From Oligoflexia bacterium (GTDB taxonomy: Bacteria > Bdellovibrionota_G > JALEGL01), in the NCBI GenBank assembly GCA_035326705.1, contig DAOLES010000002.1, positions 58,307 to 122,306 on the forward strand: a DNA stretch of 64,000 nucleotides, read 5' to 3'. Below are positions 5,090 through 20,995 of this stretch, in pieces. The notes beneath the pieces were generated by a model that searched no databases, was not told where the DNA came from, and saw nothing but the letters and a program-made list of their open reading frames with translations. The translations under genes and the position numbers were made by a program. The first letter of the stretch is position 1, and each line of letters starts with the position of its first letter.

Positions 5090-5869
5090 ATGAATACAGA
5101 TGTATTGGCTTTGCAAGATGGCCATAGTTCTATTCGTCAATATCAAAATAAAGCGATTGAAGCAGATCTTTTACAGAAAATTTTGCTTACTGGCACGCGT
5201 GCTGCCACATCAGGCAATATGCAATTTTATGCTATGGTTCTTACTCAAGACCCACAACAAAAACAAAAATTATATCAAGCACATGGTGAGCAAGCCATGA
5301 TTTTACAAGCACCTGTTTTGATTACTTTTTGTGCAGATTTGCATAGGATGCAACGCTGGTTTGATGTGCGAGAAGCCAAAACTTCTTTTGCCAATGAAGT
5401 TAGTCTTATCAGGGGTATCATCGATGCCAGTTTATTAGCCCAAAATGTTGTTTTAGCTGCTGAGGCTATGGATTTAGGAACCTGTTATATGGGTTCAACA
5501 TTAAAGGGTATTAAAGAAATCGTGAATATTTTAAACTTGCCTAAACTGGTTGTTCCAGTAACAACTATTTGTATGGGGTATCCAGCAGAAGAGAAAAAAA
5601 GAATTGAACGTTTACCTTTAGCAGCAGTTGTGCATAATGAAAGTTATGACAGCTTTAATGCAGAAAGAATAGATACAGTTTACAGTCAACGTGAACAAGA
5701 CTATTGGCTTAGGTTTACACAGAACCCACAACGAAAAAAGGTTTTAGATCGTGATAATGTGAGCAATGTTGCGCAAGCTTATAGAGCTTTAAAGTATGAT
5801 CAACAAGAGTTAGAGGATTATTCAAAAAATTTATGGGAGTGCTATCAAACGCAGTTCTTATCTGTTTGA
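5090..5869 (+). CDS. nitroreductase family protein
   Basis: Nitroreductase-fold motifs (R.S.R.Y.., ...C.DLH...). The ORF track starts at a TTG at 5072; the ATG at 5090 (MNTDV...) is the more likely start. Confidence 0.65.
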   Translation: MNTDVLALQDGHSSIRQYQNKAIEADLLQKILLTGTRAATSGNMQFYAMVLTQDPQQKQKLYQAHGEQAMILQAPVLITFCADLHRMQRWFDVREAKTSFANEVSLIRGIIDASLLAQNVVLAAEAMDLGTCYMGSTLKGIKEIVNILNLPKLVVPVTTICMGYPAEEKKRIERLPLAAVVHNESYDSFNAERIDTVYSQREQDYWLRFTQNPQRKKVLDRDNVSNVAQAYRALKYDQQELEDYSKNLWECYQTQFLSV

Positions 5870-5876
5870 TCCAGGT

Positions 5877-6773
5877 TTGACATGTTATGAAAAGGCACAT
5901 AAAGTGCAGCAAGAAAAATATATGCAACTGAATGTTAAAAACGAATACGCTTCCTTAAAGTCAGTAGCCTATTGTTTGGGTCTTTACGTGCCGGTTGCAA
6001 AAAGTTATGTTACCCAAGACCCAGAGTTTCACAAATTTCATTCACTAAAAGAAACCTGGGATATCAATCTCTTAATACAACAGCAAGAAGCATTTTTAGA
6101 GCTTTTACAGTCTTACAATGTAGACTTGATTGAAATTGAAGCAAAAAAAACATTGCCATGGCAGATGTACACGCGTGATGTTGCTTTTGTCATTGGTGAC
6201 AAAATATTTTACAGTCAAAATAGAAAATTTAAAGAGCGCAATGGCGAGTTTGATCAACTGGCAAACAGGATCAATCAATTGTCTATTGATAAAAAGCAAT
6301 GCATAGAAATTGTATCTGGGCAGATTGAAGGTGGTGATGTTATGCCTACGGATGATCAAGTTTTAGTTGGGTTAAGTAGTCGTACATCACAGGAAGCGAT
6401 TGATGAACTTGCACAATATGTTGATGTCAAGGTATTGAATTTGGGTGAAAATATTATGCATTTAGACACACGTTTAATGATTGTATCTAAAGATATAGCC
6501 ATTATTCATCGCTCCAGCTTTAATGAAAAAGACATTGAATACCTTCAAAAAAAATACACCTTAATTGAGGTAAGTGATGAAGAGGCAAAACTGTTGGCGA
6601 CCAATGTTGTGCTTTTAAATCCAGAAACCATTATAGTAGAACAACAACAAAAAAGACTTCAAAATGAATTGAAACAGCATGGCTTTAAAATTGAAAAACT
6701 TAGTTACTCAGAGCCCATCAAATTAGGTGGATCATTTAGATGCACCAGTCTTACTTTATCACGAGAACCCTAG
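5877..6773 (+). CDS. amidinotransferase-superfamily enzyme (DDAH / arginine deiminase-like)
   Basis: 298 aa ending in GGSFRCTSLTL, the C-terminal catalytic-Cys motif of the amidinotransferase/DDAH fold. Immediately follows the nitroreductase gene. Confidence 0.55.
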   Translation: MTCYEKAHKVQQEKYMQLNVKNEYASLKSVAYCLGLYVPVAKSYVTQDPEFHKFHSLKETWDINLLIQQQEAFLELLQSYNVDLIEIEAKKTLPWQMYTRDVAFVIGDKIFYSQNRKFKERNGEFDQLANRINQLSIDKKQCIEIVSGQIEGGDVMPTDDQVLVGLSSRTSQEAIDELAQYVDVKVLNLGENIMHLDTRLMIVSKDIAIIHRSSFNEKDIEYLQKKYTLIEVSDEEAKLLATNVVLLNPETIIVEQQQKRLQNELKQHGFKIEKLSYSEPIKLGGSFRCTSLTLSREP

Positions 6774-9717: not shown

Positions 9718-11151
9718 TTAAAACTTGAAATTGGTTCCTAAATATAAATCATTGACGGTGATTTTATCATTTTCATTAAGACTGTCTTCTTCTTTAAATA
9801 TTTGATATCGAGCGTGCAAAAGATTTTTTTTACTAAAATACCAAAATAAATTTCCGCCAAAACTGTACTCTTGTTCATTTTCTGTGGGTAAGCTGGTTAA
9901 GGTATTGTTTAAATAAACGTCACGTTCAGTTTTGACTCGATTAAAAAAACTTTCCAAGCGCAATTGACCGTCAGAAAAATCTTTACCCAATAAAAAATCA
10001 AATGCTACGTGGGCACTTTTATAATTGTTGATAAAATTAATTTGGGTTCTAAAATCAATGCTTGGCTGAAAAAGAGCATTGTTTTTATAACCTAAAAAAT
10101 AACGACTTCTATTCAGCGCATCAAAACTACGTTTTGTTAACTCTATTCCAGTAAAAATATTTTGTGATTTTAAAAAAGAATAGCTGATTTGATCTCTAAT
10201 TTGTGTGTAATAGGTGTCATTAAAAACATCACCGTTAACGTAGGTGTCAGGCGTAAATTGCCCTTGCCCAGGGATTTGTGAGCTGAGAGAAGCAGCGTAC
10301 TCTATATTTGACCAACGGGTGAAACTTAAGCTATTGTTTAAATGATCTGAAAAAATATAATAAAAATTTAATAGCAATTGATCCAAAGACTTTGGCACAA
10401 AAGAATAGTTGAGTAAGGCGGATAATGTTACCTTGCTATTTGGAATGTAAGTGCCGTGAGTAAAATTATATAAGCGATCCACTTGACCTTGATACAAAAG
10501 CGTATTTAAGGAGCTGCTAAAATTTAAAGTGTCATTTTTATGTTGGTAGTAACTGCCTAAGCTTATAAAATCAGTGCTGATAAACTGATTGTTTTGATTG
10601 CTTCCAATAAAGCCAAGGCTGGTTCTTGGATCTTGTCCAAGACCAGAGAAAAATCCAAGCTGACCCTCGTTGTTAAGATTTAGTATCAGTCTTGCACCAT
10701 CAAAACGCATACCACCGCTTTGAAAAACGATTTGCCTTCCCAGCCATAGGTCATGGCCTGAAAAAAAATTTTTATACTCTAATGATAATTCTGTAATGTC
10801 ATAACGATTTTTTTGATTGTAAGCTAAGGTGTAGTTGGTTTGATCTAAGTTAAAACGACTTTTACCAACAAAACGAAAGTTTGTTTGTTTTGAATCAAAG
10901 CTACTTTTTTGCTGATACAGTCTAACATTAAGCATGAGTAAACGATAACGGTCCTGTAAATAATCTTGACCAACTCCGTCAGTTTGTATTGCATTGTCTT
11001 GGTCTAATGTGTTTTGCGTAACTGACCAGTATCCTAAATTAAGATTTCCATTGAACTGCGTTTCAGATTGAGCATGAGTCAATGAAAGTGTCACCAGGAA
11101 ATAAAAAAGAACAAAAAAAAGTATATTCTGTTTTATTATTTTACAACTCAT
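9718..11151 (-). CDS. outer-membrane beta-barrel protein (putative porin of a porin-cytochrome complex)
   Basis: ~477 aa from MSCKIIK (the ORF track extends 6 codons further, to 11169). Signal peptide; alternating amphipathic beta-strand pattern rich in Y/F/N/S/T/G; C-terminal ...GTNFKF aromatic terminus. Immediately follows the 27-haem cytochrome gene. Confidence 0.55.
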   Translation of the reverse strand: MSCKIIKQNILFFVLFYFLVTLSLTHAQSETQFNGNLNLGYWSVTQNTLDQDNAIQTDGVGQDYLQDRYRLLMLNVRLYQQKSSFDSKQTNFRFVGKSRFNLDQTNYTLAYNQKNRYDITELSLEYKNFFSGHDLWLGRQIVFQSGGMRFDGARLILNLNNEGQLGFFSGLGQDPRTSLGFIGSNQNNQFISTDFISLGSYYQHKNDTLNFSSSLNTLLYQGQVDRLYNFTHGTYIPNSKVTLSALLNYSFVPKSLDQLLLNFYYIFSDHLNNSLSFTRWSNIEYAASLSSQIPGQGQFTPDTYVNGDVFNDTYYTQIRDQISYSFLKSQNIFTGIELTKRSFDALNRSRYFLGYKNNALFQPSIDFRTQINFINNYKSAHVAFDFLLGKDFSDGQLRLESFFNRVKTERDVYLNNTLTSLPTENEQEYSFGGNLFWYFSKKNLLHARYQIFKEEDSLNENDKITVNDLYLGTNFKF

Positions 11152-13184
11152 AGTTTGGAAGGTCTCCATCCATAGGTTCTATGGCAGTCCTTGCAGTTGG
11201 TGTTGCCACCAGCATGTTGCGGAATAATAACTGGCGAAGCAAAGTCTTTTAAATGACAAAAAGAACATTCATTGGGTAAGCCACCAAAAACACGATTTAC
11301 ATGGCATTGTTCACAAGAAAGAAAACGGTGGGCACCAGACAATTCAAAGCCGGTTTGAGCATGTCTAAACTGTGTGGGTAACCAAGTGTTTTGCCCATGA
11401 CAATCCTGACAACGTGTTGACAGGCTATTCATATGCGGATCTTGGTGACAGCTTTGGCATTGTGGTTTTGCAGACCTGATGGCCTGTTTGGGGCCGTGAC
11501 AGACTAAGCAGTTGAGTTGATTGTGAGCCCCTTTAAGTTCATATTCACCAAAATCATGGAAGTTGTTTTTCATGGCAAAGGTTGTGCTGTTGTGACAACG
11601 TTCACAGTTTTGTCCAAATGAGTTGTTATGAACATCATTGTGACATTCAGAACAACGTTTAAGACCAAGCTTGTATTTAAAATTTTGGTGGCATTGATTA
11701 CAATTGAGATATTTATGTTTGCCATCTAATTTAAAGTCAGAATTTTTATTATGATCAAAATTAATGTCATTGAAACGGGTTGGTGTATGACAATTTTCAC
11801 ATTGTTGTCCAAGAGCACCTTGGTGAAAGTCATTATGGCAAGATTTGCAATTTGTGGATAAGGGTCTAAATTTTCCCTGTTCATGACAGCTTTCGCAATT
11901 GACATATTTGTGTACGCCTTCTAGTTTAAACTGTGATTGCGTGTTGTGATCAAATTGCATTTCTGAAAAGCCAGCCGTACTATGGCAATTTGAACAAGCC
12001 TGTACACCAAATTGGTTTTTATGAATATCTTGATGACATGCATTGCATTTGGGTGATGTGCTTAGCCAACGGTACTTTCTATTTTGGTGACATTTTTCAC
12101 ATGCAACAACAGTGTGTTTTCCTGTAAGTTGATAGCGAGAATCTTTGTTGTGCAGAAAAGATAAAATTTGCCATCCTTCAGTTAAATGACAGTCATTGCA
12201 TTGTTTAACTTTCCAATTGATTTGAAACTCTTGACCATGCGGATTATTGTGACAATCACTGCATTGATTAAAATTTTTTATTTTACCAATAGTGTTGCCA
12301 TGACAGTTGTTACAAGTCACACTTCTATGTTGGCCCGTTAAAGGGAAACGGGTTTTTTGATGGTCAAAATCTTTAAAAGAAGCTTCAGTGCTGTTTAAGC
12401 TGCTTCCAGCTTTCCAGGAATCTGTACTATGACATTTTTGACAGTCAGAACCAAAGCTTCCCTTGTGAGGGTCACTATGACAGTTTGTGCAGCTTTTATA
12501 TCTTAGGGGGCTCCAAAGTTTTTTAGTGTGACAGCTATAGCATTGAACCTTTTGATGTGCGCCAGTGAGCGGAAAGTTTGTTTCCCGGTTATGATTAAAG
12601 CGTAGATGTTTAATTAGGCTAGTAAAATTATAAGAGTGGTGACAATCTTGGCAGCGTTTAAATCTTGGGTTTTTGCTTCTATGAACATCTTTGTGACAGC
12701 TTGAACAGTTGGATGAGGCGGCTAGATAGCTGGTTTTTTTTGTGGCTTTACCGCTAATCGCATGTTTGCGTTTTTGAGTGTGACATTGTTTGCATTTAAC
12801 GTCTTTGTGTTTTCCAGTGAGAGACCATCCAGTTTGTGAGTGACTAAATTGAAGACGTTCTAAACCCAAAAGTTCATAATCAAGGCCTTTATGTTCATTG
12901 TGACATTGATAACACTGAGCAGTTTGAACAGCGTGGTAACCAGAGTTGTTTTTAATTTTATTGGCAATATCCTTGTGGCAATCTAAGCATTTTTTATTGG
13001 GCAGGCCTTGAGCGGTTGTGTGACAAAGAGTGCAGTTCTTTACGCCAGATATTTCTTGGTGGGCTTTAGATAATGCGCCTGGGCTGATCCAAGTGTTAAA
13101 TTGGGTAAAACCAAGTTTGGGATAAAATAACAGTATCCAGCAAAAAAGATAAAGAGCATTAAAATTTTTGTTCTTAATTAGCAA
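11148..13184 (-). CDS. multihaem c-type cytochrome (27 CxxCH motifs)
   Basis: 678 aa with signal peptide. I counted 27 CxxCH haem-binding motifs in repeating tri-haem-like units with conserved distal His (c7/c3-like modules). Confidence 0.9.
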   Translation of the reverse strand: MLIKNKNFNALYLFCWILLFYPKLGFTQFNTWISPGALSKAHQEISGVKNCTLCHTTAQGLPNKKCLDCHKDIANKIKNNSGYHAVQTAQCYQCHNEHKGLDYELLGLERLQFSHSQTGWSLTGKHKDVKCKQCHTQKRKHAISGKATKKTSYLAASSNCSSCHKDVHRSKNPRFKRCQDCHHSYNFTSLIKHLRFNHNRETNFPLTGAHQKVQCYSCHTKKLWSPLRYKSCTNCHSDPHKGSFGSDCQKCHSTDSWKAGSSLNSTEASFKDFDHQKTRFPLTGQHRSVTCNNCHGNTIGKIKNFNQCSDCHNNPHGQEFQINWKVKQCNDCHLTEGWQILSFLHNKDSRYQLTGKHTVVACEKCHQNRKYRWLSTSPKCNACHQDIHKNQFGVQACSNCHSTAGFSEMQFDHNTQSQFKLEGVHKYVNCESCHEQGKFRPLSTNCKSCHNDFHQGALGQQCENCHTPTRFNDINFDHNKNSDFKLDGKHKYLNCNQCHQNFKYKLGLKRCSECHNDVHNNSFGQNCERCHNSTTFAMKNNFHDFGEYELKGAHNQLNCLVCHGPKQAIRSAKPQCQSCHQDPHMNSLSTRCQDCHGQNTWLPTQFRHAQTGFELSGAHRFLSCEQCHVNRVFGGLPNECSFCHLKDFASPVIIPQHAGGNTNCKDCHRTYGWRPSKL

Positions 13185-13251: not shown

Positions 13252-13848
13252 TTACTTTGCTTGAACTTTATCTTTTTTTACGTTTTTAGGTTTTTTATCT
13301 TTTGCAAAATCAAAATAATTCCAGTCTTGAGCATTGTGACATTCATCACAAGGCTTTTGATACTCTGGTTTTTTATGCGGGTTAGGGTGACAAGAGCTAC
13401 ACTGACTAGAGTTTTTAAGATAAGTAGTTAAATTGGTTTTTTTGCCAGTAATGGCATTGACACGCTTATCTGTGTGACACTCTTCACATTTTAAACGTTT
13501 ATGTTTGCCTTCTAAAGGCCAGCCAGTATCCTCATGTTTAAAACCAATTCGTTTTAAATCTCTTAAGTCATGTTTTTTACCACGGTGCTCACCATGACAT
13601 TGGTAACAGCGCTTGTCATCATTGCGGTAATGGTAACCACTCTTAGACTCTATTTTTTCTGCTATGTCAGTATGGCATTTTAAACAGGCTTTTTTACGAT
13701 TACCCGTATGACATTTGGTGCATTTAGAGAAGCCATCAAGATATTTAAAGTGCGCACTGCTTAAATCCCCCGGTGAAAAAAACTGGGGAAACACAGTATT
13801 GAGCATGGCGATGCTTAAAGCAAAGCTATAAATAAATAATTTACGCAC
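13252..13848 (-). CDS. hexahaem c-type cytochrome
   Basis: 198 aa, signal peptide, 6 CxxCH motifs. N-terminal ~150 aa are clearly paralogous to the N-terminus of the 27-haem protein; Lys-rich C-terminus. Confidence 0.85.
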   Translation of the reverse strand: MRKLFIYSFALSIAMLNTVFPQFFSPGDLSSAHFKYLDGFSKCTKCHTGNRKKACLKCHTDIAEKIESKSGYHYRNDDKRCYQCHGEHRGKKHDLRDLKRIGFKHEDTGWPLEGKHKRLKCEECHTDKRVNAITGKKTNLTTYLKNSSQCSSCHPNPHKKPEYQKPCDECHNAQDWNYFDFAKDKKPKNVKKDKVQAK

Positions 13849-13996: not shown

Positions 13997-15979
13997 TCAA
14001 GTCCAACCAGTAAAAAAGAATAAGTTGTATATGACGTGAATAATGGCAAAAATACCCATGACATAGGCCAGCGGTTTATGCACGTATTGCCATTTAACAA
14101 ACAAGCGTGAGGCAAATTCTAAAAAGCGAACATTGCGTGTCAGTAAAACTTTGCGGTGCACCATGCTTCTAAATGTGCTGTACTGGCGTTTGTAACTTTC
14201 CATTTCTTTGGGCGTAAAATGTTTGATTCGCATCAGCAACCAATAAGAACGAATACCAGACTTGAACAATTGAAAAATACTTGGGTCTTCTAACTCTTCA
14301 AACTTGGTTTCTTCCATGATTTTATCGATGGTTCGTCTACTGCGGGTCCCTTTTTCAAAAATAGCATCTAATTTATAAGCCAATTCACGGTCTTGTTCCT
14401 GAATTTGTCTAAATTTAAGTTCGGTTGTTGCCACTGTCCTGGGAATGACTTGGTAAAGAAAACGACCAAACATACCAGTAATCATTACAAACAATAAGGA
14501 AACCATGCCCAAGGTTCCCCAACCCATCTCAAATTCAAAACCGGTATGAAATAAAACTAGAATGGTACCCATAAAACCGGCGAAGTTATGGAAATCCAAC
14601 CAGAGAGGTTTTGAGCCAAAACGTCCAAGCAAACGAGGAAAAGCCTTGCGCAGAGGATAAATCATGGCCATTACAATTAAAGAAAAACCAACGTTGCCAA
14701 TAAATAAGCACAACTGTGAGCCTTTATTAAAATTGAGGGGAATATTGGGGTCTATAAAACCCAGCCTTTGGGCTTTTAGTAAAAGTGAAAACTGAGCATA
14801 AAACTGTTCTTGCAAGGCAAGAAACTCAAAGCATAACCAAGTGATGACAACAAAAGCTGTTAGAAAATAAATTTTTTGTAAAAACTTAACCAAGCCTGAG
14901 CGTTCGTCCAGTTCTTGACTGTTCACTTGTGTACTTTGATTGACGCTAAACAGGGTTGGGTTTTCTAAAAGTTCATTGGCACTTAATTCTATAATTGCAC
15001 CGGTTGGACAATGCGATATACATGCAAGATCACTGTAACCATTACAATGATTGCATTTGTCAGCAATAAATTTAGGTGGACGTTTTTGTCCAGGGTGATT
15101 TAAAAAACGAGAAAAACGTTCATCTTTTTGATCAACTTTATGAATGGTAATTGCACCATATTGACAGGCTTTGGCACAAGATTGACAGCCAATGCAATCA
15201 TCCTTAATTTCCACTTCTCCGCTATCTGGGTTAAAAATAACGCTTTCAACTGGACAAGAAGGAATGCACGTTGGATAAAAACAAGTTAAACAACTTTGCG
15301 CAATGTCCATAACACCAAACTTGGCATAACCACGTTCTATTCTTTGAAAACCATGCCGGTCCTCACAAGCTTCATAACATGTATCACACTCAATGCATTT
15401 GTTCATTTGCGTGATTTTAATTCTGGACGCTTGGGTTAAAGCGGTATCAACTAAAAAATCTAAGACTGAGCGTGAATAACTGTCTTCACAGTAAATTCTA
15501 TTTCTGTAGTCAATGCGATCACTGATTTGTTTGATACGATTTTCAAAAACTTGGCTGCTGCGGGCAAAGCTCTTCAAGTCTTCTTTACGAATAATTAAAA
15601 TTTCGGCATCGGTGATAGCTGCAACTTTACTGGCGGTTAAGTTGTTCCAAGTCATGGGCTTATCCACAAAAAACTCGCCCTTGCGGAGAAAGTTAATGGG
15701 AATTTTACGGGCATTTTCGTCAAAACCAATAATTTTAACCTGACCTTTGGCGATAAAAAAGAAATGAGCAAAGCTTTCAGTGTCACTTTCAAATTCTAAG
15801 ATGTCTTCATTGGCTAGGGCGCTGGCTCTTCTTACTTTGCCTTGCAATTGTTTTAATGTAAAATTGGGGATATCACGAAAAAGTTTAATGATTTTTAAAT
15901 CTTCAAGTGATGTAACAGGAAAGCTAGGGGGTCCTTTTTTCTGCTTATTGCGTTTATTGTAGATAATTCCATTAGACAT
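13997..15979 (-). CDS. cyclic-nucleotide-binding domain / 4x[4Fe-4S] polyferredoxin / integral-membrane fusion protein
   Basis: 660 aa. N-terminal Crp-like cNMP-binding domain; four Cys clusters (CIECDTCYEAC, CLTCFYPTCIPSCP, CIGCQSCAKAC, CNHC...CISHCP); C-terminal ~5-6 TM helices with conserved His. Confidence 0.7.
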   Translation of the reverse strand: MSNGIIYNKRNKQKKGPPSFPVTSLEDLKIIKLFRDIPNFTLKQLQGKVRRASALANEDILEFESDTESFAHFFFIAKGQVKIIGFDENARKIPINFLRKGEFFVDKPMTWNNLTASKVAAITDAEILIIRKEDLKSFARSSQVFENRIKQISDRIDYRNRIYCEDSYSRSVLDFLVDTALTQASRIKITQMNKCIECDTCYEACEDRHGFQRIERGYAKFGVMDIAQSCLTCFYPTCIPSCPVESVIFNPDSGEVEIKDDCIGCQSCAKACQYGAITIHKVDQKDERFSRFLNHPGQKRPPKFIADKCNHCNGYSDLACISHCPTGAIIELSANELLENPTLFSVNQSTQVNSQELDERSGLVKFLQKIYFLTAFVVITWLCFEFLALQEQFYAQFSLLLKAQRLGFIDPNIPLNFNKGSQLCLFIGNVGFSLIVMAMIYPLRKAFPRLLGRFGSKPLWLDFHNFAGFMGTILVLFHTGFEFEMGWGTLGMVSLLFVMITGMFGRFLYQVIPRTVATTELKFRQIQEQDRELAYKLDAIFEKGTRSRRTIDKIMEETKFEELEDPSIFQLFKSGIRSYWLLMRIKHFTPKEMESYKRQYSTFRSMVHRKVLLTRNVRFLEFASRLFVKWQYVHKPLAYVMGIFAIIHVIYNLFFFTGWT

Positions 15980-16147: not shown

Positions 16148-16867
16148 GTGCACATGATTGAAGCGCAACATATTCATAAAGTATATGGTGATATAACAGC
16201 AGTAAAAGATATTTCTTTTAGGGTTAAAAAAGGTGAAATTTTAGGCTTTTTAGGAGCCAATGGCGCCGGCAAGACAACAACCATGCGAATTATGACTGGT
16301 TCATTGCAACCCAGTTCTGGAACTGCCTTGATTGCAGGCTATGATATTTTAAAAGAGCCATTAGAAGTTAAGCGTCGTATTGGATATTTACCGGAGTCGC
16401 CACCAGTCTATTTTGATTTTACGGTAGAAGCATTTTTAAAATTTGTTGCTAAAATTAGAGAAATCCCAAGTAACTTGCAAAAACAACAAATAGAATGGGC
16501 TATTGACAAGTGTGGTTTAAAACATGTTGCCAAGCGTATGATTGGTAATTTATCTAAAGGCTATAAACAAAGGGTGGGCTTAGCGCAGGCAATTGTGCAT
16601 AAGCCTGATGTATTAATTTTGGATGAACCAACGGTGGGTCTTGACCCAACTCAAATTCGCGAAATACGCGCTTTAATACAAACTTTATCGGAAGAACACA
16701 CCATTATATTATCCACGCATATTCTGCCAGAAGTTAATATGATTTGTGATCGAGCAGTTTTTGTCCATCAAGGTCAAATCGCCCTTGAAGGATCCATTAA
16801 AGAATTAACCCAAACAAAAAGTTTAGAAGAAGTATTTGTCGATGTCATGCTCACACAAGCAAGTTAA
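16148..16867 (+). CDS. ABC transporter ATP-binding protein
   Basis: Walker A GANGAGKTT, signature LSKGYKQRV, Walker B LILDEPT, H-loop. GTG start at 16148 or ATG at 16154. Confidence 0.85.
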   Translation: MHMIEAQHIHKVYGDITAVKDISFRVKKGEILGFLGANGAGKTTTMRIMTGSLQPSSGTALIAGYDILKEPLEVKRRIGYLPESPPVYFDFTVEAFLKFVAKIREIPSNLQKQQIEWAIDKCGLKHVAKRMIGNLSKGYKQRVGLAQAIVHKPDVLILDEPTVGLDPTQIREIRALIQTLSEEHTIILSTHILPEVNMICDRAVFVHQGQIALEGSIKELTQTKSLEEVFVDVMLTQAS

Positions 16868-16911
16868 GCTTCTATGGGGTTAGGAATAGCAATATATTAA
16901 AGAGGTAAAGC

Positions 16912-17703
16912 ATGAAAAAAATATGGACCATTATAGAAAAAGAATTAAAGCATTATTTTTATTCACCTATTGCTTATGTGGTGATGGTGGTGTTTTTGTC
17001 ATTGACCGGATTTTTCTTTTATGTGGGGCTGAGTAGGTTCAGCATGATGTATGAGAATTATAAAAACTTAGCACAGATGACACAAAACCCACAGTACTTA
17101 GAAAGTTTAAACCTTAATGAAATTGTTATTGCCCCCAGTTTATTTAACATGGCTTTTATTTTGTTATTTTTAATTCCTTTGCTGATGATGAGAAGCTTTG
17201 CTGAGGAAAAGAGTAAAAAAACAGATGAACTGTTAAAAACTGCTCCACTAAGCACAACACATATTGTTTGGGGTAAATACCTATCAGCATTTTTGTTTGT
17301 GCTGTGTATGATTTTACCCACTGTAATTTATCAGATTTTTTTATTTGCTAGCTTGGACAATCCTCCTGAGTTAGGTCCAGTGATAACAGGATATGTAAGT
17401 CTTATTCTTTACACAGCAACAGCTTTAGCAATAGGTATGTTTGCAAGTTCATTAACTGAAAATCAAATTGTTGCTGCGGTCATGACCTTTGTGGTTTTGC
17501 TATTGCTATTTGTTATCAGTTCTATTGGTTTAAAAGAAGGCAGTATTTTATACAGTATGGTTCAATATATTTCTATCCCGGAACATATGAAGGCAATGTT
17601 AAGAGGTGTAGTGGATAGCCGGGATGTCGTTTATTTTTTAAGTTTATCTGGTTTGTTTGTATTTTTAACCCATCGTTCTTTAGATGTACAAGGTTGGAGA
17701 TAA
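16912..17703 (+). CDS. ABC-2 type permease (GldF-like)
   Basis: 263 aa with ~6 TM helices, directly downstream of the ATPase. Confidence 0.6.
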   Translation: MKKIWTIIEKELKHYFYSPIAYVVMVVFLSLTGFFFYVGLSRFSMMYENYKNLAQMTQNPQYLESLNLNEIVIAPSLFNMAFILLFLIPLLMMRSFAEEKSKKTDELLKTAPLSTTHIVWGKYLSAFLFVLCMILPTVIYQIFLFASLDNPPELGPVITGYVSLILYTATALAIGMFASSLTENQIVAAVMTFVVLLLLFVISSIGLKEGSILYSMVQYISIPEHMKAMLRGVVDSRDVVYFLSLSGLFVFLTHRSLDVQGWR

Positions 17704-17706
17704 AAA

Positions 17707-19350
17707 ATGAATACATTATCATTGATGAGTGGTGTTACAGGCTTTGTTTTATTGCTTGGCGCAATTTTGGGTTATGGAATTACCAAGGACAGCAGCAATT
17801 GGTTTTTTAGAAGCCTGATGATTTTTTCTGTGTTGTTTTTGGTTTATTACTTGGTCATGAATATTAAATATTTAATGAAAAGTCCTGGGGGGATAAAAAA
17901 TGCATTTAGCGACAAAAAAAATCAAGGAAGATTGGGGAATGCTATTTTTATCCTCTTGGTTGTTTGTTGTTTGGCTGTTGTTAATGTTATTTCGACTAAA
18001 ACCATGTTTTGGAAAAAAGATTTTACCCAAAATGAAATTAACACCTTGTCTGATCAAACGCTAAGTACCTTAAAACAATTAGATAAACCGATTAAAATAC
18101 AAGTCTTTATGTTTGAAAATAACCAGCTAAAACCTGGGTTAAAAAATTTGTTGCAGTACTACCAAGATGCAAGTGATCAAGTAAAGGTAGAGTTCAAAGA
18201 TCCAGATGTTGCAAAGTTAGATGCTCAAAAAATTTCTGCGCAAGACGGAGACATTTTAATTGAATATGGTGAGCAGCAGCATATCATGCAAGGTAGTACA
18301 GAACAGGATATCACCCAAGCCATTTTAAAAGTAACGCGTAATGGGGAAACAATGGTGTGTTTTACTGAAGGTCATGGTGAGTTAAAGTTTGAAGGAGACC
18401 CACAAGATCCAAGAAGTTTAAGTTTTATTAAACCTGGCTTAAGCAATGAGGGTTTTAATGCTCGTACACTGAGTAATCTTTTGCCCAAAATAGATGAAGC
18501 TTGTTCGATAGTTATTATTGCTGGTCCACAAGTAGCGTTTACAGCCAATGAAGTCATTAGTCTCAATGAATATTTATTGTCTGGAGGTAAAGTACAGTTG
18601 CTGCTTGACCCCAATATCAGTACAGTTGTGGGTCAAAAAAATAAAGTTCGTTTGGTAGACAATGGTTTAAAAGACTTTTTACACTCTTGGGGAGTAGTTT
18701 TAGGAGATAATGTTATTTTAGAAAAGCGCTTGTCTTTACAAGGCATGCAAATTACCACTGAGCTTGTGGTTGCTAATTATGGACAGCATCCAATTGTTGA
18801 GCCACTTAAGCAAGGGATGAATGGTAACTTGAACACTGAATTTGACCAAGTGAGATCAGTGAATAAAGCACCTGGTTTTGAAGGAACCGTTGTTGAGTTA
18901 GCCTTTACCTCACCTGGAGAAAACAGCTGGGCCCAGTCAGATTTGCAAGCACTATTTATTGATAAAAAACCAGTCATTGAGGCAACAGATCAAGTGGGTA
19001 AAGTTAGTATTGGTCTTGTGTCTGAAAAAGATTTGGAAATAAAAGTAGAAGGGGACAATGACCCTGAAATCAAGCAAGCCCAACTGGTGGTATGGGGAGA
19101 TAGTGATTTTATTTCAAATGCTATGGTAGGTCAAAACCGATACAATTATGATTTGTTTATCAATGCTTTAAACTTTTTAAGAGGAGAAGTAGAGCAAATA
19201 ACAATTAGACCCAAACTGATTAAAAGCTCAGCCATAGAGCTATCCGCCACACAATCCATAGTCATTTTTTATTTATCTATTATCATATTGCCAATGCTAG
19301 TACTTTTATTTGGATTAAATTTATGGCTGTATAGAAAGAGATTAGGTTAA
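17707..19350 (+). CDS. GldG-like ABC-transporter-associated protein
   Basis: 547 aa, N- and C-terminal TM anchors around a large periplasmic domain. Follows the ABC-2 permease as in gldA/F/G-type loci. Confidence 0.55.
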   Translation: MNTLSLMSGVTGFVLLLGAILGYGITKDSSNWFFRSLMIFSVLFLVYYLVMNIKYLMKSPGGIKNAFSDKKNQGRLGNAIFILLVVCCLAVVNVISTKTMFWKKDFTQNEINTLSDQTLSTLKQLDKPIKIQVFMFENNQLKPGLKNLLQYYQDASDQVKVEFKDPDVAKLDAQKISAQDGDILIEYGEQQHIMQGSTEQDITQAILKVTRNGETMVCFTEGHGELKFEGDPQDPRSLSFIKPGLSNEGFNARTLSNLLPKIDEACSIVIIAGPQVAFTANEVISLNEYLLSGGKVQLLLDPNISTVVGQKNKVRLVDNGLKDFLHSWGVVLGDNVILEKRLSLQGMQITTELVVANYGQHPIVEPLKQGMNGNLNTEFDQVRSVNKAPGFEGTVVELAFTSPGENSWAQSDLQALFIDKKPVIEATDQVGKVSIGLVSEKDLEIKVEGDNDPEIKQAQLVVWGDSDFISNAMVGQNRYNYDLFINALNFLRGEVEQITIRPKLIKSSAIELSATQSIVIFYLSIIILPMLVLLFGLNLWLYRKRLG

Positions 19351-19519
19351 TATGCGAAATCAGGAACTGATTGAGCACACGGGGATAAAAAAACACAAAC
19401 GACGATTTTTGTTTTTTAAGGGGGCGTGAGCCCCCTTGAAAGAGGGAGCGAAGCGGGAGCCAATGCTAGTACTTTTATTTGGGTTAAATTTATGGCTGTA
19501 TAGAAAGAGATTGGGATAG
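19290..19519 (+). mobile_element. short two-hairpin element flanked by a 61-bp direct duplication of the upstream gene's 3' end
   Basis: Direct repeats 19290-19350 and 19459-19519 differ at 4 positions, all synonymous in the gene's frame. Between them lies a 108-bp insert containing a conserved ~87-nt core (19372-19458) with two hairpins. Confidence 0.5.
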
Positions 19520-19567
19520 ATGACCCATATTATTTGCCTGGTTCATATATGTATGGAGGATTAATCC

Positions 19568-20995
19568 GTGTTGAAAAAAATTGTAATTGCTTTTTTGGTT
19601 TTGATTGGGCTGATTGTTTTAAATTGGTGGAATGTTAAACAATCAGAAAAAAAAGAAGCTATCAAAGAACAGCAAGAGTTACTGCTAAATATAAAAAAAC
19701 AGAATATTACAAAAATAGCTGTATCAAATAGTCAGGGTCAATGGCAGTTGCTGAAAAGATCCCAAGAACCAGGTGGAAAGTACTCAGACGATTTAGCAGG
19801 TTTTGCCAGTGAATTTGATGTGCAGCCACAATGGTTACTTAAATGGGATGATAATACATACTTAGCAAATCAAAATCAGGTGGATGTTTTGTTGGATGAT
19901 TTAACACAAGCAAAAAAAGATAAGTACATTGCTAAAGGTAATGAAAAATTTTCTAGTTATGGCATTGTTAAAGAAAAGTCAGAGATAAAAATTTATGAGG
20001 GTGATTTACACGAGCTTAAAGAAACTTTGCTCACAGGGGATCTCAATACAATGGGTAGCTCGCTTTATGTGGCAAATGGCAATCAAGATATATTTTTAAG
20101 TGACCAAAGACTCAAAGACTCTCAAACTAAACAAACATCTGATTATATCCATAAAAATATGGTAGGTTTTGATGACCCGCAAAAAATTAGTTTAAAAAAT
20201 ATTTCTGGCACCTATGAGTTGATTAAAAAAAATGATCAGTGGCATATCTCTTCACCCATCAAAATTTTAGCGGACACATTGTTTGTTGAGGGTATGTTGA
20301 ATCATTTAAAAAATTTTGAAATAGATGAAGTTTTAGAAAATCGTGAATTTTCAAATTTAATTAAAGAAACCTTGCTTAAAAAGGCAGACTTCTTTTTTGA
20401 AATCACAGATAAAACAAAAGTTAAAAAGTTATATATCAATGAATCCGTGCCTAAAGGCGGGTCAAATACGTCTTACCATGCATTTATATATAGAGATGGA
20501 TTGCCCTTTGTGTTTAAGAAAAGCCCCATTAAACCCGGACACTTTTATTACACTTTAAGAGATTTAGCTGTGAAAAAAGTTTTTTCAGTCAATGCCAGTG
20601 AGGTTCAAAATTTTAAAATTATTCAAAACAATAAAACTAAAAATTTTGTTCAGAAAGATAATCAGTGGATTGAAGAAAAAAGTGTGGGTAGCAGTGAATT
20701 GAATGAGTTTGTTCCAAGTCATGCCTTATTTGCACTTAAGGCAAAAAAGTTTTTAAAACAAGATAAAAATAAAAACTTAACAGTTGACTATGCAATCAGT
20801 GTTATTGATAGCAATGGTCAAGAACAAACACTGCTAGTGTACAAAGAACCCTATAAACAAAACAACTTAAGCTTTACTCAGGTATACAGTTCAGCGCACA
20901 ATGCTCAATTGTTGTTTGACATAAAACAGCTTGATATTATATCTGATGCAGTAAACAATGTAATGAATGCGAATAAAAAGGAGAGTAAGAAATGA
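19568..20995 (+). CDS. DUF4340-like protein (commonly associated with GldG-type transporters)
   Basis: 475 aa, N-terminal TM anchor, Lys-rich. Sits downstream of the GldG-like gene; family assignment from memory. Confidence 0.45.
   Translation: MLKKIVIAFLVLIGLIVLNWWNVKQSEKKEAIKEQQELLLNIKKQNITKIAVSNSQGQWQLLKRSQEPGGKYSDDLAGFASEFDVQPQWLLKWDDNTYLANQNQVDVLLDDLTQAKKDKYIAKGNEKFSSYGIVKEKSEIKIYEGDLHELKETLLTGDLNTMGSSLYVANGNQDIFLSDQRLKDSQTKQTSDYIHKNMVGFDDPQKISLKNISGTYELIKKNDQWHISSPIKILADTLFVEGMLNHLKNFEIDEVLENREFSNLIKETLLKKADFFFEITDKTKVKKLYINESVPKGGSNTSYHAFIYRDGLPFVFKKSPIKPGHFYYTLRDLAVKKVFSVNASEVQNFKIIQNNKTKNFVQKDNQWIEEKSVGSSELNEFVPSHALFALKAKKFLKQDKNKNLTVDYAISVIDSNGQEQTLLVYKEPYKQNNLSFTQVYSSAHNAQLLFDIKQLDIISDAVNNVMNANKKESKK

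What the first reader, a model, noticed from the sequence alone, without database searches (positions are those of the whole stretch)
13997..15979. Unusual fusion: Crp-type cyclic-nucleotide-binding domain + four [4Fe-4S] clusters + C-terminal polytopic membrane domain
The first gene of the cytochrome cluster combines a cytoplasmic cNMP-binding domain (no HTH) with four ferredoxin-type Cys clusters and ~5-6 TM helices bearing conserved His. This suggests a quinol-oxidising or electron-entry module whose activity is directly gated by a cyclic nucleotide. I do not recognise this arrangement from NapH/CcoG/RdxA/NosR-type polyferredoxins.
Basis: partly seen in the sequence, partly recalled or inferred. 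Interest (0 to 1): 0.65.

Follow-up and report, generated by a model that had tools for sequence, protein, structure and literature searches.

The report
Fused iron-sulfur/heme-b membrane electron conduit
This gene encodes one protein that joins a cytoplasmic chain of four iron-sulfur clusters to a two-heme membrane module and sits next to giant multiheme cytochromes and an outer-membrane pore, so it most likely carries electrons across the inner membrane without using quinones; it is a fused variant of a little-studied family that others have described bioinformatically but never tested.

Summary
Window 13997-15979 (-) encodes a 660-aa protein with three parts: a cNMP-binding-fold domain without an HTH, four [4Fe-4S] Cys motifs, and a 5-helix membrane domain with two membrane-spanning His pairs. 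All 16 Cys and 4 His are invariant in 45 homologs.

- **Membrane domain.** It is not unprecedented. It meets the published definition of the ~300-aa "IMP" of PCC3/PCC4 porin-cytochrome clusters (5 TM, SGxxG on TM4, WX3HX13H on TM3 and TM5; He et al. 2017).
- **Split relatives.** A cNMP-domain/FeS gene next to this membrane protein occurs in the "Ptd" operon preprint and in Sphingobium herbicidovorans.
- **cNMP site.** It is degenerate here: Gly-Glu and Arg-Thr-Ala are replaced by V-D and T-A-S, and 0 of 45 members are canonical. Cyclic-nucleotide gating is therefore unlikely in this clade.
- **Quinol oxidation.** It was not tested, and the fusions argue against needing it.

In 25 of 27 independent stand-alone IMP clusters, multiheme cytochromes are adjacent. 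24 of 27 have a Fer4-FAD/NAD(P)H flavoprotein.

Best model: cytoplasmic FeS wire, then two b-hemes, then periplasmic 6- and 27-heme cytochromes, then an outer-membrane barrel, giving a quinone-independent NOX-like conduit. It is a new fused variant of a known but untested kind.

The parts
13997..15979 (-). Whole gene: 660-aa fusion of a CNB-like domain, a 4x[4Fe-4S] ferredoxin and a diheme-b-type inner-membrane domain (IMP)
   Evidence: ORF. Identical to P0001 and 45 homologs found. Pfam domains. AlphaFold model has pLDDT 75.
15434..15916 (-). Residues ~22-182: cyclic-nucleotide-binding FOLD (beta-barrel plus C-helix), cytoplasmic, no HTH
15617..15679 (-). Residues 101-121: degenerate phosphate-binding-cassette equivalent (GEFFVDKPMTWNNLTASKVAA)
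   Evidence: Alignments to PKG II, Bd1971 and Sphingobium CNB-2 put V105-D106 at the Gly-Glu positions and T115-A-S at the Arg-Thr-Ala positions. The Arg-equivalent column is V32/I6/D5/T1/M1 of 45.
14960..15424 (-). Residues ~186-340: four-cluster ferredoxin domain (Cys motifs at 195-205, 230-242, 262-272, 309-324), cytoplasmic
   Evidence: Motifs. Fer4_7, Fer4_9 and Fer4_21 at or above gathering. Best NCBIfam similarities are to four-cluster electron-transfer subunits (AegA/YgfT N-terminus, DmsB, HydN), all far below their cut-offs. All 16 Cys invariant. Homologous to the FeS domain of the Sphingobium partner protein, E 5e-31.
14000..14902 (-). Residues ~360-660: 5-TM membrane domain of the PCC3/PCC4 'IMP' type (DUF4405 / ferric-reductase-like superfamily)
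14546..14602 (-). TM3 motif W460-x3-H464-x13-H478 (proposed ligands of the cytoplasmic-side and periplasmic-side b-hemes)
   Evidence: Regex match. W460, D462, H464 and H478 invariant. Motif defined in He et al. 2017.
14036..14092 (-). TM5 motif W630-x3-H634-x13-H648 (second ligand of each b-heme)
   Evidence: Regex match. W630, H634 and H648 invariant.
14087..14446 (-). Residues 512-631: ~120-residue basic, all-helical cytoplasmic insert between TM4 and TM5; candidate docking platform for the FeS domain or partner
   Evidence: Mean 21.7 K/R in the family. Helices 487-541, 545-558, 568-587 and 591-655 in the model. Conserved in stand-alone IMPs over the full length.
13252..13848 (-). 198-aa periplasmic hexaheme cytochrome c, paralog of the N-terminus of the 27-heme protein
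   Evidence: 6 CxxCH and a signal peptide. Pfam Cytochrome_C7 and c3. 46% identity to residues 13-187 of the large cytochrome, E 2e-44.
11148..13184 (-). 678-aa cytochrome c with 27 CxxCH (nine c7-type triheme units; 25 aa per heme), 'wire'-type
   Evidence: Heme motifs. Pfam Cytochrome_C7 in 9 stretches, E 4.6e-35. 23-27-heme counterparts follow the target homolog in all Bdellovibrionota loci that extend far enough.
9718..11169 (-). 483-aa putative outer-membrane beta-barrel (porin-like); its start overlaps the cytochrome gene by 22 nt
   Evidence: Signal peptide, C-terminal ...NFKF, no TM helix after the signal peptide, excess of alternating hydrophobicity (78 windows against 50 +/- 14.5). 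Homologs of 27-32% identity follow the cytochrome in the Bdellovibrionota loci. No Pfam family. Barrel fold not modelled.

Best explanation
**What it is.** The protein is a single-polypeptide transmembrane electron conduit. A cytoplasmic four-cluster [4Fe-4S] 'wire' is fused to a five-helix inner-membrane domain. That domain holds two b-type hemes stacked across the membrane. H464 and H634 would bind the cytoplasmic-side heme. H478 and H648 would bind the periplasmic-side heme.

**Proposed path.** Electrons from a cytoplasmic donor pass along the FeS chain and through the two b-hemes. They then reach the periplasmic 6-heme and 27-heme c-type cytochromes encoded next door. From there they pass through or along the 483-aa outer-membrane barrel to an extracellular or cell-surface acceptor. 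This is a NOX-like, quinone-independent route. The donor is not identified in this window. In relatives it is a Fer4-FAD/NAD(P)H module.

**The N-terminal domain.** It has the cyclic-nucleotide-binding fold but has lost the cNMP-contacting residues. It most likely acts as a structural, docking or non-cNMP regulatory domain.

**Shown here:**
- domain content
- invariance of all cofactor ligands
- topology
- homology to the stand-alone IMP family
- the statistical gene association of that family

**Inferred:**
- heme binding
- the physical hand-over to the cytochromes
- the outward direction of flow
- the absence of cNMP binding
For: 1. **Ligands.** All 16 Cys and the 4 TM His are invariant across 45 homologs down to about 25% identity.

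3. **Topology.** There is no Sec or Tat signal. The TM2-3 loop has 3.6 K/R in 12 residues. The TM3-4 loop has none. The TM4-5 insert has about 22 K/R. The FeS part is therefore inside, each His pair spans the bilayer, and the C-terminus is outside.

4. **Natural fusions on both faces.**
- About 15 of the 22 long proteins among the top 149 clusters at 50% identity carry CNB-like + four-cluster FeS N-terminal to the IMP.
- P0096 and P0161 add a GxGxxG Rossmann insert.
- L026 fuses a triheme c module to the periplasmic C-terminus.

5. **Gene association of stand-alone IMPs.** In 27 de-replicated metagenomic clusters, 25 have 6-51-heme cytochromes nearby. 24 have a Fer4-Pyr_redox flavoprotein and 22 have both. 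The same layout occurs in Marinimicrobia, Ignavibacteriales, Acidobacteriota and cultured Emticicia.

6. **Split form in Sphingobium.** Pyr_redox + 2 CNB + a four-cluster FeS domain homologous to the window's (E 5e-31) abuts the IMP, and a 10-heme cytochrome follows.

7. **Bdellovibrionota loci.** All eight that extend far enough keep the order target, 23-27-heme cytochrome, barrel homolog. No terminator-like site lies in the 148-bp gap to the first cytochrome gene.

8. **cNMP site.** It is degenerate in all 45 members.
Against: - No experiment exists for any member. PCC3 was still called functionally unverified in 2025.
The FeS domain is modelled at low confidence (pLDDT 44-75).
- No electron donor (flavoprotein, ferredoxin or dehydrogenase) is encoded near the gene in this window.
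- The unrelated divergent ABC/GldG operon is equally syntenic in Bdellovibrionota. Synteny within that phylum alone is therefore weak evidence.
- The ~710-aa Myxococcota clade of the same fusion mostly has no cytochrome within 8 kb. It keeps a large TPR protein and a Ser/Thr kinase as neighbours instead. The periplasmic partner is therefore not always a multiheme cytochrome.
- In iron oxidizers the IMP is assumed to carry electrons inward and to be quinone-active.
- The 27-cluster statistic comes from the best 80 hits to one FCB-group subfamily profile and is not an unbiased sample.
Confidence: 0.55

Rival explanations
1. **Quinone-coupled cytochrome b.** This is the reading of the first reader and of He et al. 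2017. The membrane domain exchanges electrons with the quinone pool, and the hemes link quinol or quinone to the periplasmic cytochromes. The fused FeS chain would then be a second branch. One version is NarH-NarI-like: quinol, then b-hemes, then the cytoplasmic FeS chain. The other is a cytoplasmic-donor:quinone reductase.
For: - He et al. proposed that the IMP is 'possibly a quinone-active cytb' by analogy with cytochrome b of bc1 and of [NiFe]-hydrogenase.
- Weak hits occur to Ni_hydr_CYTB and to FdnI and CybB-type bundles, which are quinone-reactive proteins.
- From established knowledge, a cytoplasmic four-cluster ferredoxin plus a diheme b membrane subunit is the arrangement of nitrate reductase NarH-NarI.
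Against: - No Pfam or NCBIfam match to the NarI, HdrE, DsrM, NrfD, CymA, NapC, CbcL or ImcH families.
- The recurrent partner is a complete cytoplasmic NAD(P)H/FAD/FeS module together with periplasmic multiheme cytochromes. With fusions on both faces, this gives a continuous cofactor chain that needs no quinone.
- No quinone-site residues could be identified or tested.
Confidence: 0.2
2. **Inward flow (extracellular electron uptake).** The outer-membrane barrel and cytochromes collect electrons from Fe(II), a mineral, a cathode or another cell. The b-hemes pass them inward to the FeS chain, which reduces a cytoplasmic acceptor.
For: - PCC3 and PCC4 were discovered in neutrophilic iron oxidizers and modelled as inward conduits.
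- The IMP gene of PCC3 copy 2 is significantly upregulated when Sideroxydans CL21 is oxidizing iron.
- The cofactor chain is in principle reversible.
Against: - Moving electrons from the positive to the negative side of the membrane works against the membrane potential. Delivering them to low-potential [4Fe-4S] or NAD(P)+ from Fe(II)-range donors is strongly uphill (inference from standard potentials).
- No energy-coupling element is present.
- The dominant partner in relatives is an NAD(P)H-type flavoprotein, which favours outward flow.
- The host phylum is not known for lithotrophic iron oxidation, and nothing on this was found in the literature search.
Confidence: 0.15
3. **Cyclic-nucleotide-gated conduit.** This is the first reader's central idea. 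cAMP or cGMP binds the N-terminal domain and switches electron flow on or off.
For: - The fold is a genuine CNB fold.
- In the split Sphingobium homolog, the CNB domain next to the FeS domain has a fully canonical cassette (VGEMALIAGGPRTATVKA; 105 bits for two domains). Nucleotide control of this type of conduit is therefore plausible in some lineages.
- The cassette-equivalent region is itself strongly conserved within the Bdellovibrionota clade (F104 45/45, V105 39/45, K107 40/45, W111 40/45, T117 40/45), which suggests a functional site.
Against: - In this protein and all 45 family members, the phosphate-binding Arg is absent (V/I/D/T/M), and the Gly-Glu that contacts the ribose is Val-Asp or Val-Asn.
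- Divergent fused relatives mostly lack R-x-A as well.
Confidence: 0.1
4. **Not tied to the neighbouring cytochromes.** The fusion is a general supplier of cytoplasmic reducing power to some other periplasmic enzyme or substrate, in the manner of MsrQ or FoxB. Examples would be repair, iron assimilation or ROS handling. The adjacency to cytochromes in Bdellovibrionota would be inherited synteny.
For: - Eleven of the 12 Myxococcota-clade loci with the same fusion have no multiheme cytochrome within 8 kb. They share a 1,100-1,300-aa TPR protein and a Ser/Thr kinase as neighbours instead.
- The unrelated ABC/GldG operon is just as syntenic in Bdellovibrionota.
- In four Bdellovibrionota loci, 1.2-1.6 kb of other sequence separates the target from the cytochrome. 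In L001 this holds two opposite-strand genes.
Against: - The IMP-cytochrome association recurs independently in at least five phyla and in different gene orders.
- A direct IMP-triheme c fusion exists.
- In four Bdellovibrionota loci the cytochrome gene follows within 30-70 bp.
Confidence: 0.1

Closest known systems
Conserved inner-membrane protein (IMP) of PCC3/PCC4 porin-cytochrome clusters (He et al. 2017, Front Microbiol 8:1584; PMC5566968)
   Same: - Five TM helices, S/T-GxxG on TM4, and WX3HX13H on TM3 and TM5.
- Encoded with very heme-rich 'wire' cytochromes and an outer-membrane barrel. The window's 25 aa per heme falls in the PCC3 range of 22-39, and its 27 hemes match the PCC3 periplasmic counts of 21-27.
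- PCC4 subgroup II has an Fe-S gene just upstream of the IMP.
   Different: - Published IMPs are stand-alone proteins of about 300 aa. Here the IMP is the C-terminal third of a 660-aa fusion with a CNB-like domain and four FeS clusters.
- The host phylum differs: Bdellovibrionota here, Proteobacteria and Planctomycetes there.
- There is no clearly separate extracellular cytochrome.
- The barrel is 483 aa, whereas most PCC3 porins have many strands (up to 42).
- Sequence homology to the reference PCC3 and PCC4 IMPs could not be tested, because no reference sequences were available.
- The authors proposed a quinone-active role. The fusions argue instead for a cytoplasmic FeS partner.
PtdE + PtdF of the ptdABCDEFG operon (bioRxiv 10.1101/2023.11.21.568154), and the Sphingobium herbicidovorans pair WP_231568103.1 / WP_037469326.1
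   Same: - The same parts in the same order: cNMP-binding domain, [4Fe-4S] ferredoxin, ferric-reductase-like membrane protein, next to multiheme cytochromes and a porin.
- The window's FeS domain is homologous to the Sphingobium one (E 5e-31), and the IMP domains match (E 3e-23).
   Different: - Those systems are split into two genes and include a FAD/NAD(P)H module (PtdC, or the N-terminal Pyr_redox in Sphingobium).
- The Sphingobium CNB is canonical, whereas the window's is degenerate.
- PtdE is described with two clusters, not four.
- No Ptd sequences were available for direct comparison.
- The function of Ptd is stated to be completely unknown.
DUF4405 / MsrQ (YedZ) / PepSY-like (FoxB) / FezC heme-b membrane proteins (mSystems 2024; PMC11334425)
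   Same: - Four central, most-conserved His on TM helices that bind b-heme for transmembrane electron transfer. Heme b was shown experimentally for a DUF4405 protein and for FezC.
- The target and its stand-alone relatives score for DUF4405.
   Different: - Scores are below the Pfam gathering threshold (23.2 against 26.7).
- DUF4405 proteins are described as six-TM and flavinylation (ApbE)-associated. This family has five TM helices, a 120-residue cytoplasmic helical insert, and FeS/flavoprotein plus multiheme partners.
NADPH oxidase / ferric reductase (NOX/FRE, FRD domain PF01794), and the two-component MsrQ-Fre system
   Same: - The logic matches: cytoplasmic reductant, then cytoplasmic redox domain, then two stacked b-hemes on HX13H helices, then an acceptor on the other side. 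He et al. describe the FRD comparison.
- P0096 and P0161 contain a Rossmann insert, which makes them single-chain NOX-like proteins.
   Different: - The cytoplasmic domain is a polyferredoxin, not an FNR-type FAD/NADPH domain.
- There are five TM helices, not six.
- The Ferric_reduct score is sub-threshold (17.5 against 28).
- The acceptor is proposed to be multiheme cytochromes rather than O2 or Fe(III) chelates.
- The MsrQ-Fre comparison rests on my own knowledge.
Four-cluster ferredoxin subunits of respiratory complexes (DmsB, NrfC, HybA, HydN, NarH type)
   Same: Four Cys motifs of the CxxCxxCxxxC type form a linear [4Fe-4S] wire. The best NCBIfam similarities are to the AegA/YgfT N-terminus, DmsB and HydN.
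   Different: - All scores are far below the family cut-offs, for example DmsB 40.8 against 214.
- It is not paired with a molybdopterin or NiFe catalytic subunit.
- It is covalently fused to its membrane anchor.
NapH / CcoG (FixG, RdxA) / NosR membrane polyferredoxins
   Same: All are membrane proteins that carry cytoplasmic [4Fe-4S] motifs and feed electrons to periplasmic processes.
   Different: - No NapH, CcoG/FixG or NosR family model appeared among the Pfam or NCBIfam matches.
- From my own knowledge, those proteins lack the WX3HX13H b-heme helices and the CNB fold, and NosR has an FMN-bind domain.

Membership tests
PCC3/PCC4 inner-membrane protein (IMP) group, as defined by He et al. 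2017 | Five predicted transmembrane helices | tested here: met
   Hydropathy and the AlphaFold DSSP assignment give TM helices at about 362-390, 422-446, 457-479, 487-511 and 632-655. Definition.
PCC3/PCC4 inner-membrane protein (IMP) group, as defined by He et al. 2017 | Two WX3HX13H motifs, on TM3 and TM5 | tested here: met
   W460LDFH464...H478 and W630QYVH634...H648. W and H are invariant in 45 homologs.
PCC3/PCC4 inner-membrane protein (IMP) group, as defined by He et al. 2017 | SGxxG motif on TM4 | tested here: met
   The window has T501-G-M-F-G505. The family consensus is LSGxFGRFLY, and G502 and G505 are invariant. The first position is Thr in the window protein and Ser in the family consensus.
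PCC3/PCC4 inner-membrane protein (IMP) group, as defined by He et al. 2017 | Encoded in a cluster with periplasmic multiheme cytochrome(s) and an outer-membrane porin | tested here: met
   6-heme and 27-heme cytochromes and a 483-aa barrel-like protein lie downstream on the same strand. The order is conserved in Bdellovibrionota loci. The porin fold was inferred from sequence features only.
PCC3/PCC4 inner-membrane protein (IMP) group, as defined by He et al. 2017 | Stand-alone protein of about 300 aa | tested here: not met
   Here the domain is residues ~360-660 of a 660-aa fusion. That makes it a fused variant rather than a typical member.
PCC3/PCC4 inner-membrane protein (IMP) group, as defined by He et al. 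2017 | Sequence homology to reference PCC3 or PCC4 IMPs (e.g. from Sideroxydans ES-1) | not testable with these tools
   No reference sequence could be fetched. He et al. state that PCC3 and PCC4 IMPs are not significantly similar to each other. Homology to a large stand-alone family found in identical cluster types is shown.
Functional cyclic-nucleotide-binding domain (PF00027; CAP/PKA/PKG type) | CNB beta-barrel fold | tested here: met
Functional cyclic-nucleotide-binding domain (PF00027; CAP/PKA/PKG type) | Phosphate-binding cassette: F-G-E ... R-[ST]-A, with Arg contacting the cyclic phosphate | tested here: not met
   V105-D106 replace Gly-Glu and T115-A-S replace Arg-Thr-Ala in alignments to PKG II, Bd1971 and Sphingobium CNB-2. 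0 of 45 members have Arg there or the canonical pattern.
CRP/FNR transcription factors | C-terminal helix-turn-helix DNA-binding domain | tested here: not met
   No HTH family in Pfam or NCBIfam. The CNB C-helix runs directly into the ferredoxin domain.
DUF4405 (PF14358) / Ferric_reduct (PF01794) diheme membrane families | Score at or above the Pfam gathering threshold | tested here: not met
   DUF4405 scores 23.2 against 26.7 and Ferric_reduct 17.5 against 28. Of the stand-alone relatives, 15/40 hit DUF4405, 6/40 Ferric_reduct and 2/40 Ni_hydr_CYTB at E<0.01. This is a superfamily-level relation only.
DUF4405 (PF14358) / Ferric_reduct (PF01794) diheme membrane families | Four conserved TM His able to ligate two b-hemes | tested here: met
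   H464, H478, H634 and H648 are invariant and lie on two helices at matching depths. Actual heme binding was not tested.
Four-cluster ferredoxin subunits (DmsB / NrfC / HybA / HydN equivalogs) | Score above the NCBIfam equivalog cut-off | tested here: not met
   DmsB 40.8 against 214, HydN 36 against 260, NrfC 26 against 378, HybA 25.8 against 263. It shares the four-motif pattern only.
NapH / CcoG(FixG, RdxA) / NosR polyferredoxins | Match to the family-specific models | tested here: not met
   None of these families' models appears among the Pfam matches listed at E<=0.1 or among the 25 NCBIfam matches shown of 52.
NarI / HdrE / DsrM or CymA / NapC / CbcL / ImcH quinol-oxidising EET entry proteins | Match to the family models; c-type heme motifs for CymA, ImcH and CbcL | tested here: not met
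   No such Pfam or NCBIfam hit. There is no CxxCH in the target.

The most novel reading that the evidence does not exclude
The fusions seen here reveal the true partner of the whole IMP family. The family holds thousands of clusters, found in PCC3/PCC4/Ptd-type and FCB-group porin-cytochrome operons. The fusions are FeS wire + IMP, FeS + Rossmann + IMP, and IMP + triheme c.

On this reading the IMPs are not quinol oxidases. They are the membrane core of a widespread, quinone-independent, NOX-like pathway. That pathway wires cytoplasmic NAD(P)H or ferredoxin directly to giant periplasmic and extracellular heme wires. It would be a third way, besides the CymA/NapC-type and the ImcH/CbcL-type, of connecting metabolism to extracellular electron transfer. 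Some lineages would add cyclic-nucleotide control (canonical CNB in Sphingobium), and the Bdellovibrionota clade would have lost that control.
Probability: 0.4. Interest if true: 0.75.

Novelty: new variant of a known kind. Interest (0 to 1): 0.52.

Why it matters
**The open question.** How electrons leave, or enter, the cytoplasmic membrane is the least understood step of extracellular electron transfer outside Shewanella and Geobacter. The IMP of PCC3/PCC4-type clusters has been a 'hypothetical protein' since 2017 and was guessed to be quinone-active.

**What this protein adds.**
- This protein and its relatives act as natural 'Rosetta-stone' fusions. They tie the IMP on its cytoplasmic face to an iron-sulfur wire, or to FeS plus FAD/NAD(P)H. 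They tie it on its periplasmic face to c-type hemes.
- That gives a concrete, testable, quinone-independent mechanism for a family with thousands of members in many phyla.
- It also extends multiheme porin-cytochrome machinery to Bdellovibrionota, a phylum not known for it.
- A single-polypeptide version is a convenient target for expression, spectroscopy and cryo-EM.

**Limits.** The finding is not categorically new. Both the membrane family and the split cNMP-FeS pairing have been noted before, and nothing has been tested experimentally.

Tried and rejected
2. **Foldseek of the TM model against the PDB.** Nothing below E 0.5.
3. **Profile search of PDB sequences.** Only chance hits, best E 0.4.
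4. **AFDB50 fold search.** The library was unavailable.
5. **Word-indexed search with the cytoplasmic half (residues 1-345) to find split PtdE-like proteins.** It returned three fragments only.
6. **Context look-ups for two stand-alone IMPs.** Both hit contigs of 2-3 kb and were uninformative.
7. **Metagenome scan with the 40-sequence alignment.** I repeated it with a tighter alignment.
8. **Search for a partner flavoprotein or ferredoxin elsewhere in the 64-kb window.** None found.
9. **Promoter and terminator scan.** Counts were within shuffle expectation. It only shows the absence of a terminator-like site in the gap.
10. **Literature on Bdellovibrionota and multiheme cytochromes.** Nothing relevant. 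The bioanode paper covers only the outer-membrane parts.
11. **Rejected readings.**
- CRP/FNR regulator: no HTH.
- NapH/CcoG/NosR: no family hits.
- Periplasmic FeS subunit: no Tat signal, and the positive-inside pattern disagrees.
- R112 as a shifted cassette Arg: it lies only 6 residues after D106, against 9-10 in canonical domains (spacing from my own knowledge), and is present in only 19 of 45 members.

Full report
**1. The observation.** An ATG-started ORF of 660 aa lies at window 13997-15979 on the minus strand. It is identical to a protein from an Oligoflexia MAG. About 40 full-length homologs at 47-59% identity occur in Bdellovibrionota assemblies, and a second clade of about 710 aa sits at about 25% identity.
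- Pfam finds cNMP_binding at residues 69-140 (37.2 bits, gathering 27.5). It also finds several Fer4 dicluster families across 192-329, and sub-threshold DUF4405 (450-481) and Ferric_reduct (612-656).
- There are four Cys motifs (195-205, 230-242, 262-272, 309-324), five hydrophobic helices and no HTH.
- In alignments of 21 and 45 homologs, all 16 Cys and four TM His (H464, H478, H634, H648) are invariant.
- Downstream on the same strand lie a 6-heme cytochrome c, a 27-heme cytochrome made of nine c7 units, and a 483-aa signal-peptide protein ending in ...NFKF. That last gene starts 22 nt inside the cytochrome gene.

**2. Topology and the membrane domain.** No member has a Sec or Tat signal.
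- Across the family, the 12-residue TM2-TM3 loop averages 3.6 K/R and no acidic residues. The TM3-TM4 loop has no K/R. The 120-residue TM4-TM5 insert has about 22 K/R.
- The CNB-like and FeS parts are therefore cytoplasmic, the C-terminus is periplasmic, and each His pair (14 residues apart) spans the bilayer.
- AlphaFold models this domain confidently: pLDDT 86-96 in the full model and 80 for the domain alone. TM4 and TM5 extend into a cytoplasmic helical bundle.
- Foldseek and PDB sequence searches find nothing significant. No close relative has been solved.

**3. A large family, mostly stand-alone.** A profile of the membrane domain was run against 1.84 billion representative proteins. It finds 3,932 clusters at E<=1e-3 and 212 at E<=1e-30.
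- Most are stand-alone proteins of 280-330 aa annotated 'hypothetical', common in FCB-group bacteria.
- They keep the four His and are homologous to the fused domain over the full length (hhalign prob 100%, E 2e-57).
- They score only weakly for DUF4405, Ferric_reduct and Ni_hydr_CYTB, and no NCBIfam model covers them.

**4. Prior art.** He et al. 2017 defined a conserved ~300-aa inner-membrane protein (IMP) in the PCC3 and PCC4 porin-cytochrome clusters. The definition is five TM helices, SGxxG on TM4 and WX3HX13H on TM3 and TM5. They proposed two b-hemes and a possibly quinone-active role.
- The window protein has W460-x3-H464-x13-H478, T501-G-x-x-G505 and W630-x3-H634-x13-H648. Its membrane domain is therefore an IMP by that definition.
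- The 27-heme cytochrome has 25 aa per heme, which fits the PCC3 'wire' class of 21-27 hemes and 22-39 aa per heme.
- A 2023/24 preprint describes the ptd operon. [quoted passage not shown] Next to it lies PtdF, a 'transmembrane ferric reductase-like protein'. The operon also has a FAD/NAD(P) oxidoreductase, multiheme cytochromes and a porin, and its function is 'completely unknown'.
- A 2024 paper purified a DUF4405 protein and showed heme b binding through four central His.
- PCC3 was still functionally unverified in 2025.

**5. What the IMP works with.**
- *Cytoplasmic-side fusions.* Of the 149 best representatives, 22 are long. About 15 of these have CNB-like + four-cluster FeS + IMP. Two (P0096, P0161) carry a Rossmann GxGxxG insertion inside the FeS domain.
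- *Periplasmic-side fusion.* An alphaproteobacterial ORF (L026) continues from the IMP's C-terminus into a triheme c module. This independently confirms the C-terminus-out topology.
- *Gene association.* 35 metagenomic loci had at least 8 kb of flank, giving 27 clusters at 70% identity. Cytochromes of 6 to 51 hemes are adjacent in 25 of 27, a Fer4-Pyr_redox flavoprotein in 24 of 27, and both in 22 of 27. This sample comes from one subfamily profile and is not unbiased.
- *Other loci.* The same layout occurs in Acidobacteriota, Marinimicrobia and Ignavibacteriales loci.
- *Cultured Emticicia oligotrophica.* The order there is CcsA, IMP, Fer4+Pyr_redox, a 23-heme cytochrome and a 40-heme cytochrome.
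- *Cultured Sphingobium herbicidovorans.* An 825-aa protein holds Pyr_redox, two CNB domains and a four-cluster FeS domain homologous to the window's (E 5e-31). It abuts the IMP gene, and a 10-heme cytochrome follows. This is the window's domain order with a flavin module added and the IMP split off.

**6. The window's own clade.** All eight Bdellovibrionota loci that extend far enough keep the order target, 23-27-heme cytochrome, barrel homolog of 27-32% identity.
- The cytochrome follows immediately in four loci. In the other four, 1.2-1.6 kb of other sequence intervenes; in L001 this holds two opposite-strand genes.
- The divergent ABC/GldG/DUF4340 operon is equally syntenic, so within-phylum synteny alone proves little.
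- No terminator-like site lies in the 148-bp gap.
- The barrel proteins have signal peptides and [RK]F C-termini and no internal TM helix. One FCB-type counterpart is detectably homologous.
- No flavoprotein or ferredoxin gene is found elsewhere in the window. The electron donor is unknown here.

**7. The cNMP question.** The fold is real, but the binding site is not canonical.
- Alignments were made to PKG II, Bdellovibrio Bd1971 and the canonical Sphingobium CNB-2 (VGEMALIAGGPRTATVKA). They place V105-D106 at Gly-Glu and T115-A-S at Arg-Thr-Ala.
- The Arg column is V/I/D/T/M in all 45 members, and none matches the canonical pattern.
- Most divergent fused relatives also lack R-x-A. Two may keep it, but the alignment is uncertain there.
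- The site is nevertheless conserved within the clade, so another ligand or an interaction surface is possible.
- Cyclic-nucleotide control looks ancestral or lineage-specific (Sphingobium) and lost here.

**8. Mechanism.** The best-supported reading is a continuous cofactor chain. It runs from a cytoplasmic donor through four [4Fe-4S] clusters, heme b (H464/H634) and heme b (H478/H648). It continues to the 6- and 27-heme cytochromes and ends at the outer-membrane barrel.
- Outward flow is favoured because the usual partner is an NAD(P)H-type flavoprotein. Outward electron movement also runs with the membrane potential.
- Such a path would dissipate rather than conserve energy. It would act as an electron sink or a surface reductase (inference).
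- Rivals retained: a quinone-coupled role, inward electron uptake as assumed for iron oxidizers, cNMP gating, and a partner other than cytochromes.
- The last rival rests on the Myxococcota clade. It mostly has no cytochrome nearby and instead has a conserved TPR protein and a Ser/Thr kinase.

**9. Verdict.** The protein is a fused variant of a family known only from bioinformatics and never characterised experimentally. It is not a new kind of system. Its main value is that this fusion and its sister fusions point to a cytoplasmic FeS/flavin partner for the IMP family. That implies a quinone-independent, NOX-like entry to extracellular electron transfer. The idea can be tested in a single polypeptide and in two cultured carriers.

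Noticed in passing
window 13252-13848 (-) vs 11148-13184 (-): The 198-aa hexaheme cytochrome is a paralog of the first ~187 residues of the 27-heme cytochrome, signal-peptide region included (46% identity, E 2e-44). Other Bdellovibrionota loci have only the single large cytochrome, so this is a local partial duplication.
   Followed up: partly
window 15979 downwards, residues 1-25 of the target: A conserved N-terminal basic run followed by PPxFP (consensus ...KKKKxxPPxFPV) precedes the CNB-like domain in the Bdellovibrionota clade. It is modelled as disordered (pLDDT <50). Its function is unknown.
   Followed up: no
window 14087-14446 (-), residues 512-631: A ~120-residue, highly basic, all-helical cytoplasmic insert lies between TM4 and TM5. 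It is conserved in the stand-alone IMPs as well and is not mentioned in the passages of the published IMP description that I read. It is a candidate docking platform for the FeS partner.
   Followed up: partly
L026 7746-9296 (+), uncultured Alphaproteobacteria MAG: A single 516-aa ORF fuses the IMP domain (residues 83-320) through an Ala-rich linker to a C-terminal triheme c-type module (CxxCH at 468, 483, 500). The genome has 68% GC, so a frame error cannot be fully excluded.
   Followed up: partly
P0096 (823 aa) and P0161 (794 aa), metagenomic representatives: These have CNB-like + FeS + IMP with a ~185-residue GxGxxG Rossmann (weak Pyr_redox) insertion inside the ferredoxin domain. They are possible single-chain NAD(P)H-to-periplasm oxidoreductases.
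   Followed up: partly
L003, L012-L025 (Myxococcota / 'Deltaproteobacteria' MAGs): The ~710-aa clade of the same fusion is preceded by a 1,100-1,300-aa TPR protein on the same strand (start overlapping the TPR gene's end by 4 nt in L003) in 11 of 12 loci, and by a divergent Ser/Thr kinase. Cytochromes are absent except in L016. Small TPR proteins also recur in the FCB-type and Acidobacteriota operons.
   Followed up: partly
L010 6737-8717 (+), Bdellovibrionota MAG ABC1.34: The target homolog is broken into three consecutive ORFs of 166, 267 and 237 aa. This is either a pseudogene or assembly frameshifts.
   Followed up: no
L113 (Emticicia oligotrophica pEMTOL02) 3629-6715: A cytochrome c biogenesis gene (ccsA, 1,028 aa) sits directly upstream of the IMP-flavoprotein-cytochrome operon on a plasmid. 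This suggests a self-contained, possibly mobile EET module.
   Followed up: no
L030 7867-8358 (Marinimicrobia): A 163-aa Haem_bd (PF14376) protein is encoded between the IMP and the Fer4-Pyr_redox gene. It is an extra component not seen in the other loci examined.
   Followed up: no
window 16148-20995 (+): A divergent operon lies next to the target: ABC ATPase, ABC-2 permease, GldG-like ABC_transp_aux and DUF4340, followed by DUF1844-like and ClpB genes. It is syntenic with the target across Bdellovibrionota genomes of 35-58% GC. No functional link is evident.
   Followed up: partly
window 33480-35309 (+): A sigma-54 activator has an N-terminal FHA domain and a partial GGDEF-like segment ahead of the AAA+ and HTH_8 domains. 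This is an unusual input combination.
   Followed up: no
window 26424-29200 (-): A DUF6531/RHS-repeat protein (561 aa) is preceded, with overlapping ends, by a 368-aa protein with no Pfam match. It could be a polymorphic-toxin locus.
   Followed up: no
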